Source: Escherichia coli
GTDB lineage: Bacteria > Pseudomonadota > Gammaproteobacteria > Enterobacterales > Enterobacteriaceae
Assembly: GCF_003334765.1 (NCBI RefSeq)
Contig: NZ_QOWT01000013.1
Direction: 5' to 3' (one strand)
DNA: 64,000 nucleotides
The notes below the pieces were generated by a model, which ran no database searches, was not told where the DNA came from, and saw nothing but the letters and a program-made list of their open reading frames with translations. Within the stretch, counting starts at the first letter, position 1; every line of letters starts with the position of its first letter. The translations under genes and the position numbers were made by a program. Shown here piece after piece: positions 51,395 through 53,659 of the stretch.

Positions 51395-53659
51395 CTACCC
51401 GTTATCCACTGGCACGCCAAACCACTGATGATACCAACGAGGTAAAATTTGCTCCCTGAGGCTGCTAATCCGCCAGCCTTGCGCTGAAAAATTGACCGTT
51501 GTTTGACCTTGATGTGGAGTATCAATCCATTGATATCCTTGCAGTTGATAGCGATGCTTAACTTTGTTAGAGGGCAGTCGCCATGCGTTATAGCGCGATG
51601 CCGATGCGAGTGCCACTTTTCCATTCACTCGCTGAATTAATGGCAACGATGATGAGGTATTACTGCCATGGTGAGGTACCTGAAGCAATGTTGCCTGCAC
51701 TTGCTGCCAGTAACGGCTTAGCATCTTTTGTTCAGCTGGGGCTTCAATATCACCGGTTAGAAGAATGCTATTCGTCCCGTCATCAACCTTAACCACACAG
51801 GAATGGTTATTTCCTTTATCGTTGCTACCTTGTAAAGGCCAGTGCGCGCTGAAACGCAATCCTTGCCATTGCCACGCTTCGCCACGCACACAGGGCTGAT
51901 GATGTTCCCAGTTTAACGGACTTCTGATCCATAACATCGGCCATATATGCAATATTGAATCCAGCCCTCCCCGGTGATCCAGATGTTCATGGCTCAGAAT
52001 AACGCCTTCCGGTTCAAGATTATGCCAGTGGAGCCAGGGGATAATCAGTTGTTGCCCACTATCCCCTTCAGGCCAGGCCAGTCCTGTGTCATAGAGAATC
52101 GCTTTGCCGTTTCTGGCTATCACCATTGCCAGCCCTTGCCCGACATCAAGCATGTACAGCTGCCACTCGTCAGGTCGAGGTTTTTGCCACAGCGGCCAGC
52201 ACATCAGCAAGCCTCCAGCCACACACATTGCTGGCAACGTTCGCCAGGCGTTTAATCGCCATACCACCAGTAAGAACCATGGGGAAAATGATAGCCATTG
52301 CCAACATTCAGCAATGTTGATCCACCCTTCCGGCAAACTCTTTAACCCCCAGAAAAGTAAAGCCAAAGACCGGTCGGCAAGAAACCATAACCCTTGCTCC
52401 AGGATTAACGGCCCGCTTAAATGCACAACCATCGCGGCGAGGATCAACGGAACCGTGATAAATGTCACCAAGGGAATTGCTAATAGATTTGCAATAAACG
52501 AGGTCAGACTAATGCCATGAAATATGACGATTTGCACGGGCATAAGCAGAAGTGTGATTCCCAGTTGCAGATGGATGAGGGAAACAACTGCACGCAATAC
52601 CGGCGGCAGTTGCCACTCAGGACAGGGAAACCACTGATACCAAAATATCAATGCCGCGACCGCAGCGGCAGAGAGCCATAAACTTTGCGAGAGAATGGCA
52701 ACAGGATCCATCAGCAAAATTGCCGCCAGACAACATATCCATACATCCCAGCCACTCCACTGTCGCCCACTTAACTTAAGCATTCCCCACGTAGCAAGCG
52801 CCACCATGGTACGCAATGCAGGAGGTTGCATTCCCGTCAACCAGGCATAAAAAGCAGCACAGCAGATTCCGCCAATTAATGGTATTTGCCAGTGGATCCA
52901 GCGCCCAGGCAGAAAAATTTGTCCACTGCGAATGAGTCCGGCAGCCAGCAACGCCGCAAAAGCGATGTGCAATCCCGATATCGCCATTAAATGCGCCGTT
53001 CCAGTATCGCGCATGATATTTTTGATTTCTTTGGGGACGGATAACCGTTCCCCCATACCTAAACCAAGAATAACCGCATTCCACGGATAGGGTTGCAGCG
53101 TTGTTTGTAGTGACGCCAGATACTGTGCACGCAGGCTACAATTCGGTTCAATGACACTTGCCTGCAGAAAACGGCCGGTGAGCGGCTGATGCTGGGCAAT
53201 GGCATAACGCTGGCTATCAAAGCCGCCATCATTAAGTTGGCCATGAACTGCACGAACTTTGAGTTTCATTGACCATTGTTGTCCAGCACAAACCGCTTGC
53301 GGAAGATATTCGCCATACATCACGAGACCTGACGCAGGGAATATACGTCGACCTTGTAGATGAGTAATTTGACCGTAATGAGTGGTCATGCCGTCAGTTG
53401 CAGTGATCTCAACAATTGCATCCTGCGTCGCGCCAGTTAAGGTTTCTCCTGCCCACAAAATTTGCTTTGCTGATAATATGCCCCAAACGAAAAACAGCAA
53501 CGTCAGCGCGATATAACGGACGGTTTTAACAGGGATAAATGCCAGTACGCAGGCGAAGAGAGTCAGAAACGCAAGGGTTAATGTCCCAGGCAATTGGGGC
53601 AAAATCAGCAACGGAAAAATTCCGCTAATTATGCATACACCGACTGTCGTTATTTTCAT
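51395..53659 (-). CDS. ycaI: YcaI, ComEC/Rec2-family inner-membrane protein with C-terminal metallo-beta-lactamase domain (754 aa)
   Basis: Translation from the ATG at 53659 begins MKITTVGVCIISGIFPLLILPQLPG...; polytopic membrane core and C-terminal HEHLDHRGG metal-binding motif. The track ORF extends 26 codons upstream. Confidence 0.85.
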   Translation of the reverse strand: MKITTVGVCIISGIFPLLILPQLPGTLTLAFLTLFACVLAFIPVKTVRYIALTLLFFVWGILSAKQILWAGETLTGATQDAIVEITATDGMTTHYGQITHLQGRRIFPASGLVMYGEYLPQAVCAGQQWSMKLKVRAVHGQLNDGGFDSQRYAIAQHQPLTGRFLQASVIEPNCSLRAQYLASLQTTLQPYPWNAVILGLGMGERLSVPKEIKNIMRDTGTAHLMAISGLHIAFAALLAAGLIRSGQIFLPGRWIHWQIPLIGGICCAAFYAWLTGMQPPALRTMVALATWGMLKLSGRQWSGWDVWICCLAAILLMDPVAILSQSLWLSAAAVAALIFWYQWFPCPEWQLPPVLRAVVSLIHLQLGITLLLMPVQIVIFHGISLTSFIANLLAIPLVTFITVPLILAAMVVHLSGPLILEQGLWFLADRSLALLFWGLKSLPEGWINIAECWQWLSFSPWFLLVVWRLNAWRTLPAMCVAGGLLMCWPLWQKPRPDEWQLYMLDVGQGLAMVIARNGKAILYDTGLAWPEGDSGQQLIIPWLHWHNLEPEGVILSHEHLDHRGGLDSILHIWPMLWIRSPLNWEHHQPCVRGEAWQWQGLRFSAHWPLQGSNDKGNNHSCVVKVDDGTNSILLTGDIEAPAEQKMLSRYWQQVQATLLQVPHHGSNTSSSLPLIQRVNGKVALASASRYNAWRLPSNKVKHRYQLQGYQWIDTPHQGQTTVNFSAQGWRISSLREQILPRWYHQWFGVPVDNG

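What the first reader, a model, noticed from the sequence alone, without database searches (positions are those of the whole stretch)
51395..53659. ComEC/Rec2-type DNA-uptake channel homologue (ycaI) retained downstream of ihfB
ycaI encodes a polytopic membrane protein with a C-terminal metallo-beta-lactamase-like domain carrying HEHLDHRGG, the architecture of competence protein ComEC. The gene is intact and full-length here although E. coli is not naturally transformable under standard conditions, and it starts 36 bp downstream of the msbA stop on the same strand.
Basis: partly seen in the sequence, partly recalled or inferred. Interest (0 to 1): 0.35.

Follow-up and report, generated by a model that had tools for sequence, protein, structure and literature searches.

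The report
E. coli ycaI, a ComEC homologue
This is the known E. coli K-12 gene ycaI, an intact and selectively maintained copy of the ComEC/Rec2 DNA-import channel with a complete nuclease active site; it is already annotated, so it is an ordinary finding with a few small new details.

Summary
The gene is real: a 754-codon ORF on the minus strand (51395..53659), 100% identical to K-12 ycaI. It scores far above the curated cut-offs of the ComEC/Rec2 models. It has the full architecture: three N-terminal TM helices, OB fold, competence channel domain and C-terminal metallo-beta-lactamase (MBL) domain. HEHLDH is at residues 557-562.

ycaI lies upstream of msbA: its TAG stop is 36 nt before the msbA start.

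All five MBL metal motifs are intact. Motif II is the canonical H-x-H-x-D-H, whereas characterised Mn-dependent ComEC nucleases have H-x-D-x-D-H. The His variant marks 22 of 23 sampled Enterobacterales. Pasteurellaceae, Vibrio, Legionella and Shewanella keep Asp.

The gene matched in all 5426 complete E. coli genomes (at least 80% of its length in 5424) and is under purifying selection. dN/dS is 0.17 within E. coli and 0.08 against E. albertii, weaker constraint than on msbA (about 0.015).

The comEC-msbA-lpxK order is conserved across gamma-proteobacteria. A conserved msbA promoter-like element overlaps the ycaI stop codon. Only a half CRP-S-like site lies upstream.

Verdict: already known, interpretation supported, low interest.

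The parts
51395..53659 (-). ycaI coding sequence (754 codons plus TAG), ComEC/Rec2 family
   Evidence: ORF list and translation; NCBIfam NF008580 and TIGR00361; 100% identity to K-12 ycaI
53438..53659 (-). residues 1-74: three N-terminal transmembrane helices (3-18, 26-40, 45-74)
   Evidence: AF2 model secondary structure; matches '3 TM helices before the OB fold' in the N. carbonis ComEC cryo-EM structure (bioRxiv 10.64898/2026.04.23.720307)
53147..53428 (-). residues 78-171: periplasmic OB-fold domain (DUF4131)
   Evidence: Pfam PF13567 E=5.6e-5, a weak match; five beta strands plus a helix in the model
52187..53134 (-). residues 176-491: competence (channel) domain with the invariant H223-L-M-A-I-S-G-L-H231 motif
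   Evidence: Pfam PF03772 E=4e-53; TIGR00360; invariant columns H223, I227, S228, G229, H231 in the family alignment; motif present in all 78 loci covering that region
51425..52165 (-). residues 499-745: metallo-beta-lactamase-like nuclease domain
   Evidence: Pfam PF00753 E=3.5e-23; Foldseek top hit 9ic4, the ComEC beta-lactamase-like domain (TM 0.80, rmsd 2.8 A); translation
51974..51991 (-). MBL motif II, H557-E-H559-L-D561-H562. The other ligand positions are D505 (motif I), H619 (motif III position), D637 (motif IV) and H663/H664 plus S666 (motif V region)
   Evidence: translation; alignment to M. glycerini H598-x-D600-x-D602-H603, D700, H725 (PMC12455585); invariant columns
53665..53669 (-). 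Shine-Dalgarno GGAGG for the annotated start at 53659
   Evidence: sequence; conserved in 9 enterobacterial genera
53781..53796 (-). candidate, unproven CRP-S-like site TGGAAGCTGCCTCGCA. One perfect TCGCA half, the other half with 2 mismatches
   Evidence: pattern search, at chance frequency across the window; the TCGCA half occupies the same alignment position in 7 of 9 genera; Pasteurellaceae rec2 orthologues carry perfect or 1-mismatch TGCGA-N6-TCGCA sites
53815..53843 (-). intrinsic terminator of ihfB, separating ycaI from rpsA-ihfB transcription
   Evidence: 13-pair stem plus T-run; conserved in the alignment
51392..51420 (-). sigma-70 promoter-like element TTGGCG-17-TAGAAT for msbA. The -35 lies inside the last ycaI codons and the -10 contains the ycaI TAG stop
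   Evidence: scan; both hexamers conserved from E. coli to Yersinia and Photorhabdus
51359..51394 (-). 36-nt ycaI-msbA spacer (msbA leader), nearly invariant across Enterobacteriaceae genera. No terminator-like site was found in it
   Evidence: [quoted passage not shown]

Best explanation
ycaI encodes the E. coli orthologue of ComEC/Rec2, the inner-membrane machine that imports one strand of DNA. By homology, the periplasmic OB fold binds incoming duplex DNA. The periplasmic MBL domain, a two-metal phosphodiesterase, degrades the 5' strand. The 3' strand is threaded through the channel formed by the competence domain.

Shown here: the full domain architecture, all catalytic and channel signature residues, and purifying selection. 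Inferred: that the protein is catalytically active and carries DNA in E. coli.

The gene belongs to E. coli's cryptic competence gene set. Reports say that set is switched on by Sxy with CRP, and no natural inducing condition is known. This explains why an intact gene coexists with no detectable transformation in the laboratory.

For: Family and architecture:
- NF008580 1309 bits and TIGR00361 1129 bits.
- Pfam DUF4131, Competence and Lactamase_B.
- E=1e-77 to solved Rec2 9vc9.
- AF2 pLDDT 90.8, with secondary-structure elements in the order of the N. carbonis ComEC topology described in the bioRxiv paper.
- Fold hit to the ComEC nuclease domain 9ic4, TM 0.80.

Active site:
- H557, H559, D561, H562, D637 and H664 align with M. 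glycerini H598, D600, D602, H603, D700 and H725. Alanine mutants at the metal-coordinating positions lose most or all nuclease activity (PMC12455585).
- D505, H557, D561, H562, D637, H663, H664 and S666 are invariant across 35 diverse relatives. The same positions are conserved in nearly all 150 cluster representatives and in the labelled loci that cover them; isolated exceptions exist.
- S666 corresponds to L. pneumophila S662, W693 to F689 and F380 to Y373.

Selection:
- All 7 E. coli alleles examined are intact, with invariant motifs, and omega is 0.17.
- Omega is 0.078 against E. albertii.
- A match is present in 5426 of 5426 complete genomes.

Literature:
- Sxy expression gives hofQ-dependent low-level DNA uptake in E. 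coli (PMC3330819).
- rec2 orthologues occur in all five gamma-proteobacterial families examined (PMC1635313).
Against: - No direct assay of YcaI exists in the papers I could read.
- ycaI inactivation does not affect spontaneous plasmid transformation on plates (Sun 2009, as cited in PMC6135910 and PMC3306417). A ycaI deletion had no noted growth phenotype (PMC3890546).
- Upstream of ycaI there is only a half CRP-S-like site, at chance frequency for the window. Pasteurellaceae rec2 has perfect or 1-mismatch sites.
- I could not read Sinha et al. 2009 to confirm that ycaI itself is Sxy-induced.
- The channel-entrance Trp, L. pneumophila W212 (W212A lowers transformation 4.9-fold), is Lys213 in E. 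coli.
- Constraint is about ten-fold weaker than on msbA.
Confidence: 0.78

Rival explanations
1. The protein is a functionless relic. The DNA is kept because its 3' end carries the promoter and leader of the essential msbA-lpxK genes and because it is part of that operon.
For: A promoter-like TTGGCG-17-TAGAAT overlaps the last ycaI codons and the stop, and is conserved across Enterobacterales. No terminator lies between ycaI and msbA. The operon is stated in PMC10328246. Deletions and insertions in ycaI are tolerated (PMC3890546, PMC8151780). An IS1-interrupted allele and a half-length allele exist.
Against: Purifying selection acts along the whole gene, not only at the 3' end: pN/pS is 0.25, 0.15 and 0.15 for the three thirds, and omega is 0.078 against E. 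albertii. Length is exactly 754 codons in E. coli, E. albertii, Citrobacter and Enterobacter. Catalytic and channel residues are invariant at 37-45% overall identity across the order.
Confidence: 0.04
2. YcaI works as a ComEC-type importer and nuclease, but its selected role in enterobacteria is to take up DNA as a source of nucleotides, carbon or repair template, not genetic transformation.
For: E. coli shows no transformation unless recombination functions are supplied artificially (PMC3330819). That paper's reference list cites work reporting that competence-gene homologues are needed for using DNA as a nutrient (Finkel and Kolter 2001; Palchevskiy and Finkel 2006); I could not read either paper. 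PMC1635313 discusses nucleotide provision as the immediate consequence of uptake. The gene is under selection in a species without observed transformation.
Against: I could not verify that ycaI itself was among the mutants tested for DNA catabolism. The sequence cannot distinguish the fate of the imported strand.
Confidence: 0.14
3. The enterobacterial YcaI clade has been re-purposed as a membrane-anchored periplasmic phosphodiesterase acting on an envelope substrate. This would fit its canonical Zn-type ligand set and its conserved linkage to the lipid A genes msbA and lpxK.
For: Motif II is H-x-H-x-D-H in 22 of 23 Enterobacterales, against H-x-D-x-D-H elsewhere. After ComEC, the next structural neighbour is the phosphorylcholine esterase Pce. 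comEC-msbA-lpxK synteny is conserved. A DH5alpha ycaI nonsense mutant showed lower chemical and ultrasound transformation and altered permeability read-outs (PMC12844161).
Against: The same synteny is present in the Haemophilus and Vibrio loci sampled, genera in which competence regulons are well documented (PMC1635313); that Rec2/ComEC itself acts in DNA uptake there is from my own knowledge. The channel signature HLxAISGLH and the OB fold are fully retained. His for Asp is a conservative ligand swap back to the superfamily consensus. The 2026 mutant could be polar on msbA.
Confidence: 0.04

Closest known systems
ComEC/Rec2 of gamma-proteobacteria (H. influenzae Rec2 type; solved chains 9vc9, 9vcb, 9vcf)
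   Same: Same three-domain architecture and length. E=1e-77 over residues 105-747. Same HLxAISGLH channel motif, DVGQG, GD and PHHGS motifs. Same gene order comEC-msbA-lpxK in Haemophilus, Vibrio and Shewanella.
   Different: About 30-33% identity. Natural relatives carry H-x-D-x-D-H where YcaI has H-x-H-x-D-H. Pasteurellaceae have a perfect or 1-mismatch CRP-S site upstream; E. coli has only a half-site. Their channel-entrance Trp is Lys213 in E. coli. The PDB chains read SH(G/S)ANAHAGG, most likely engineered Asp-to-Ala mutants (inference).
Firmicute ComEC (B. subtilis; Moorella/Neomoorella ComEC, PDB 9ic4 and 30bt)
   Same: Same domain order. The MBL fold superposes at TM 0.80 and 2.8 A. 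Ligand positions correspond one to one. Secondary-structure elements follow the order of the cryo-EM topology.
   Different: 26% identity in the nuclease domain. The characterised enzymes have Asp at the second motif II position and Asn at motif III, and are Mn-dependent (PMC8579336, PMC12455585). YcaI has His at both (H559, H619). No biochemical data exist for YcaI.
Other MBL-fold phosphodiesterases (Pce/CbpE phosphorylcholine esterase, RNase J, CPSF73)
   Same: [quoted passage not shown]
   Different: They lack the OB fold and the polytopic channel domain. They match only the C-terminal third of YcaI, with far weaker scores (Foldseek E=3e-9 or worse; phmmer E about 0.01).

Membership tests
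ComEC/Rec2 (TIGR00361; NF008580 enterobacterial subfamily) | Whole-protein score above the curated equivalog cut-off | tested here: met
   TIGR00361 1129 bits against cut-off 190. NF008580 1309 bits against 969, covering residues 1-754 of 754.
ComEC/Rec2 | Three-domain architecture: N-terminal TM helices plus OB fold (DUF4131), polytopic competence domain (PF03772), C-terminal MBL domain (PF00753) | tested here: met
   Pfam hits (the DUF4131 hit is weak at E=5.6e-5). AF2 model pLDDT 90.8, with 3 TM helices, a beta barrel at 78-171, a helical domain at 176-491 and an MBL fold at 499-745.
ComEC/Rec2 | Conserved channel signature H-L-x-A-I-S-G-L-H and other competence-domain invariants | tested here: met
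   G220-TAHLMAISGLH231 is present. H223, I227, S228, G229 and H231 are invariant in 35 relatives, and the motif is present in all 78 loci covering that region.
ComEC/Rec2 with active nuclease domain | Complete set of metal ligands (motif I D, motif II H-x-[DH]-x-D-H, motif IV D, motif V H) and substrate Ser | tested here: met
   D505, H557, H559, D561, H562, D637, H663/H664 and S666. The second motif II position is His rather than the Asp of characterised enzymes (PMC8579336). Activity itself was not tested.
ComEC/Rec2 with active nuclease domain | Metal-dependent DNase activity of the C-terminal domain | not testable with these tools
   Requires purified protein. Assays exist only for Moorella/Neomoorella enzymes (PMC8579336, PMC12455585, bioRxiv 10.64898/2026.04.23.720307).
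ComEC/Rec2 | Required for transport of DNA across the inner membrane | not testable with these tools
   The literature read shows hofQ-dependent, Sxy-induced uptake in E. coli (PMC3330819), but no ycaI-specific test of that pathway. ycaI is dispensable for spontaneous plasmid transformation (PMC6135910, PMC3306417).
Sxy/CRP-S competence regulon (gamma-proteobacteria) | CRP-S site (TGCGA-N6-TCGCA type) in the promoter | tested here: inconclusive
   Only TGGAAGCTGCCTCGCA at 53796..53781, with 2 mismatches. There are 47 such matches in the window against 45 expected. The TCGCA half is positionally conserved in 7 of 9 genera. Positive control: three of four Pasteurellaceae rec2 loci carry a perfect site and the fourth a 1-mismatch site.
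Sxy/CRP-S competence regulon | Induction by Sxy | not tested
   [quoted passage not shown] That paper was not available, so ycaI-specific data were not seen.

The most novel reading that the evidence does not exclude
Enterobacterales carry a distinct ComEC subclade. Its features would be:
- Canonical Zn-type H-x-H-x-D-H in place of the Mn-type H-x-D-x-D-H.
- Loss of the channel-entrance Trp in E. coli and several other genera.
- A degenerate CRP-S site.
- Tight transcriptional coupling to msbA-lpxK through a promoter that overlaps its stop codon.

Under this reading the nuclease has a different metal dependence, and the protein has shifted from efficient transformation towards low-level DNA scavenging or an envelope-linked role. 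That would help explain why E. coli takes up so little DNA even when Sxy is induced.
Probability: 0.2. Interest if true: 0.4.

Novelty: already known. Interest (0 to 1): 0.15.

Why it matters
ycaI is the one component through which any classical, single-strand natural transformation of E. coli would have to pass. Its integrity therefore bears on whether E. coli and its relatives can acquire genes, including resistance genes, by natural competence.

The analysis shows the gene is not decaying. Every residue known to be needed for ComEC nuclease activity is present, and the gene is under purifying selection. This supports the existing view that E. coli has a functional but rarely induced uptake system.

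The clade-specific His in motif II, the Lys at the channel-entrance Trp position and the msbA promoter embedded in the ycaI stop codon are small, testable additions. They are not a discovery.

Tried and rejected
- Sinha et al. 2009 (PMC2725579), Palchevskiy and Finkel 2006 (PMC1482900) and Sun et al. 2009 (PMC2632100) are not held. The supplementary CRP-S site tables of PMC1635313 are not held either. Sxy induction of ycaI and the original knockout data therefore rest on secondary citations.
- I first read the motif SH(G/S)ANAHAGG in the closest solved Rec2 chains as natural degeneracy. I rejected this because natural relatives read SH(G/S)DNDHAGG, so the PDB chains are most likely Asp-to-Ala mutants. 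I found no paper describing 9vc9, 9vcb or 9vcf.
- The Foldseek PDB library did not return the full-length cryo-EM ComEC entries. Only the isolated nuclease domain could be compared by fold.
- A search with the competence domain alone did not reach the N. carbonis chain 30bt at E<=0.001. The channel-constriction residues named in the cryo-EM paper were therefore not mapped.
- The OB-fold aromatic residues of L. pneumophila (Y108, Y140, Y154) are not conserved in YcaI. They also vary in Haemophilus and Vibrio, so I dropped them as a criterion.
- A canonical CRP site in the ihfB-ycaI spacer was considered by eye and by scan. None was found within 2 mismatches in E. coli.
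Full report
**Observation.** The coordinates 51395..53659 hold an intact ORF on the minus strand, with 754 codons and a TAG stop. The mechanical ORF extends 26 codons further, to an ATG at 53737. The annotated ATG at 53659 is preceded by GGAGG, and that Shine-Dalgarno/start arrangement is conserved in nine enterobacterial genera. The DNA is 100% identical to ycaI of E. coli K-12 BW2952 and is annotated 'ComEC family protein' in RefSeq. HEHLDHRGG is present; HEHLDH is residues 557-562, window 51974..51991.

One statement in the finding is reversed. On the minus strand the order is rpsA (55984-54311), ihfB (54151-53867), ycaI (53659-51395), msbA (51358-49610) and lpxK (49613-48627). 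ycaI therefore ends 36 nt upstream of the msbA start; it does not start downstream of the msbA stop. The title's 'downstream of ihfB' is right. The gap is 207 nt and contains a strong intrinsic terminator at 53843..53815.

**What it is.**
- YcaI scores 1309 bits on NCBIfam NF008580 (cut-off 969) and 1129 bits on the equivalog TIGR00361 ComEC_Rec2 (cut-off 190).
- Pfam finds DUF4131 (27-157), Competence (201-467) and Lactamase_B (505-686).
- Solved full-length Rec2/ComEC chains match at E=1e-77 to 1e-74 over residues 105-747. The N. carbonis cryo-EM ComEC (30bt) and the M. glycerini nuclease domain (9ic4) match at about 1e-20 and 1e-17.
- An AlphaFold2 model built on 35 relatives is confident (pLDDT 90.8, pTM 0.87). 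Its elements run in this order: three TM helices, a beta barrel (78-171), short non-spanning helices, a helical bundle with two short strands (382-384 and 446-448) flanking two long helices, and then an alpha-beta/beta-alpha domain (499-745). [quoted passage not shown]
- By fold, the best PDB match is the ComEC beta-lactamase-like domain 9ic4 (TM 0.80, rmsd 2.8 A). Next come the phosphorylcholine esterase Pce and RNase J, the same neighbours reported for the Moorella domain in PMC12455585.

- In M. glycerini the catalytic set is H598-x-D600-x-D602-H603, D700 and H725, with S728 assisting. Alanine substitutions at most metal-coordinating positions leave the enzyme virtually inactive (PMC12455585). 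In B. subtilis the D573A/D575A pair lowers transformation 10-100-fold (PMC8579336).
- The HMMER alignment puts YcaI H557, H559, D561, H562, D637 and H664 on those positions.
- In an alignment of 35 relatives down to 26% identity, D505, H557, D561, H562, D637, H663, H664 and S666 are invariant.
- Nothing is lost. The one difference is that characterised ComEC nucleases have Asp at the second motif II position and Asn at motif III, and are Mn-dependent (PMC8579336). YcaI has His at both (H559, H619), which is the canonical MBL pattern.
- Among the 150 closest 50%-identity cluster representatives, H-x-D-x-D-H is the majority (about 113) and H-x-H-x-D-H a minority (24), concentrated among the closest hits.
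- With organism labels from 80 genome loci, H-x-H-x-D-H occurs in 22 of 23 Enterobacterales. These run from Escherichia to Yersinia, Photorhabdus, Arsenophonus and Orbaceae; the exception is Rahnella bruchi. Pasteurellaceae, Vibrionaceae, Legionella, Shewanella and beta-proteobacteria have H-x-D-x-D-H; the exception is Aliidiomarina.
- The motif III position is variable across the family (H, D, N, Q, R), so it carries little weight.
- The sequence SH(G/S)ANAHAGG in the closest PDB chains is best explained as engineered Asp-to-Ala mutants of SH(G/S)DNDHAGG. This is an inference.

**Other functional residues.** I used the L. pneumophila numbering, checked against the published residues.

| L. 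pneumophila residue | YcaI equivalent | Effect of mutation in L. pneumophila (PMC12455585) |
|---|---|---|
| S662 | S666 | not given for Lp; the M. glycerini equivalent S728A lowers nuclease activity |
| F689 | W693 | F689A/F691A abolishes transformation; F689A alone lowers it 2.3-fold |
| Y373 | F380 | Y373A lowers transformation 5.6-fold |
| F691 | L695 | see F689 |
| W212 | K213 | W212A lowers transformation 4.9-fold |

. The W212 position is Trp in Haemophilus, Vibrio, Shewanella and Yersinia. It is Lys, Asn or Arg in Escherichia, Enterobacter, Erwinia, Photorhabdus and Arsenophonus. The OB-fold aromatic residues vary even in transformable taxa and are uninformative.

**Is the gene maintained?**
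- A match is present in 5426 of 5426 complete E. coli genomes, and it covers at least 80% of the gene in 5424. Identity is 95.8-100% in most. One allele is interrupted by IS1 and one is half-length.
- Seven alleles spanning that range are all 754 codons with identical motifs.
- Pooled pN/pS is 0.17 for ycaI, against 0.014 for msbA and 0 for rpsA and ihfB. The values are similar in the three thirds of ycaI: 0.25, 0.15 and 0.15.
- Against E. albertii, omega is 0.078 for ycaI (dS 0.80), 0.015 for msbA and 0.048 for lpxK.
- The gene is therefore under clear but comparatively relaxed purifying selection along its whole length. That argues against a relic kept only for the cis-acting sequences at its 3' end.

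**Context and regulation.**
- comEC-msbA-lpxK adjacency is not an E. coli peculiarity. It holds in Enterobacterales, Pasteurellaceae, Vibrionaceae, Shewanella, Colwellia, Aliidiomarina and Tolumonas. rpsA-ihfB upstream is confined to Enterobacterales.
- No terminator-like site separates ycaI from msbA. The literature treats ycaI-msbA-lpxK-ycaQ as an operon (PMC10328246).
- A promoter-like TTGGCG-17-TAGAAT lies at 51420..51392. Its -35 sits within the W-F-G codons and its -10 contains the ycaI TAG stop. Both hexamers and the 36-nt spacer are almost invariant from E. coli to Yersinia and Photorhabdus. This fits the observation that ycaI deletions and insertions are viable although msbA is essential (PMC3890546, PMC8151780).
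- Upstream of ycaI, three of four Pasteurellaceae rec2 orthologues carry a perfect TGCGA-N6-TCGCA CRP-S site and the fourth a 1-mismatch site. E. coli has only TGGAAGCTGCCTCGCA at 53796..53781. That match quality occurs at chance frequency in the window (47 found, 45 expected). The TCGCA half does sit at the same alignment position in 7 of 9 enterobacterial genera. Membership of the CRP-S regulon is therefore inconclusive from sequence.
- The statement that Sxy induces all E. coli competence homologues comes from PMC3330819, which cites a paper I could not read.

**Function in E. coli according to the literature read.**
- Sxy expression permits low-level, hofQ-dependent DNA uptake that is detectable only with lambda Red (PMC3330819).
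- ycaI is not needed for spontaneous plasmid (double-strand) transformation on plates (PMC6135910, PMC3306417).
- A ycaI nonsense mutant of DH5alpha had reduced chemical and ultrasound transformation (PMC12844161). Polarity on msbA was not excluded as far as I could see.
- No paper I could access tests YcaI in single-strand import or measures its nuclease activity.

**Conclusion.** The most likely mechanism is the ComEC one: OB-fold capture, MBL degradation of the 5' strand, and threading of the 3' strand through the competence-domain channel. It would operate within a rarely induced competence system. Architecture, catalytic residues and selection are shown here; activity and transport are inferred.

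Small additions from this work:
- the corrected gene order;
- the enterobacterial H-x-H-x-D-H signature;
- Lys in place of the channel-entrance Trp;
- the conserved msbA promoter overlapping the ycaI stop;
- the wide conservation of comEC-msbA-lpxK synteny.

Interest is low.

Noticed in passing
window 51392..51420 (-) and 51359..51394: A sigma-70 promoter-like element TTGGCG-17-TAGAAT for msbA has its -35 inside the last ycaI codons and its -10 includes the ycaI TAG stop. Both hexamers and the entire 36-nt ycaI-msbA spacer are nearly invariant from E. coli to Yersinia and Photorhabdus, far more conserved than the neighbouring synonymous sites.
   Followed up: partly
loci L007-L086 (e.g. L029 Haemophilus, L032 Vibrio, L050 Shewanella, L079 Tolumonas): The gene order comEC/rec2, msbA, lpxK is conserved across many gamma-proteobacterial families, including Pasteurellaceae and Vibrionaceae. 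The rpsA-ihfB pair upstream is restricted to Enterobacterales.
   Followed up: partly
window 53781..53796 (-): TGGAAGCTGCCTCGCA lies about 130 nt upstream of the ycaI start. It has one perfect CRP-S half-site (TCGCA) that sits at the same alignment position in 7 of 9 enterobacterial genera, although matches of this quality occur at chance frequency in the window.
   Followed up: partly
PDB chains 9vc9_A, 9vcb_A, 9vcf_A: The closest solved Rec2/ComEC chains read SH(G/S)ANAHAGG where natural relatives read SH(G/S)DNDHAGG. They are probably deliberate Asp-to-Ala catalytic mutants. No paper describing them was found in the library.
   Followed up: partly
YcaI residue K213 (window 53021..53023): The position equivalent to L. 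pneumophila W212 is Trp in Haemophilus, Vibrio, Shewanella and Yersinia. It is Lys, Asn or Arg in Escherichia, Enterobacter, Erwinia, Photorhabdus and Arsenophonus. In L. pneumophila, W212A lowers transformation 4.9-fold.
   Followed up: partly
locus L023 (Rahnella bruchi) and L048 (Aliidiomarina taiwanensis): These are exceptions to the clade rule for motif II. Rahnella, an Enterobacterales member, has HNDMDH (Asp type). Aliidiomarina, outside the order, has HAHMDH (His type).
   Followed up: no
window 49610..49613: The msbA stop and the lpxK start overlap by 4 nt, which suggests translational coupling of the two essential lipid A genes.
   Followed up: no
E. coli genomes NZ_CP029492.1 (H1) and NZ_CP027459.1 (H30): ycaI is interrupted by an IS1A element in strain HS30-1. 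In strain 90-3040 the best match covers only 52% of the gene (two places in that record). These are rare natural disruptions among 5426 genomes.
   Followed up: no
window 53660..53737 (-): The open frame continues 26 codons upstream of the annotated ycaI start, to an ATG at 53737. The conserved GGAGG and start-codon alignment across genera favour the annotated start.
   Followed up: yes
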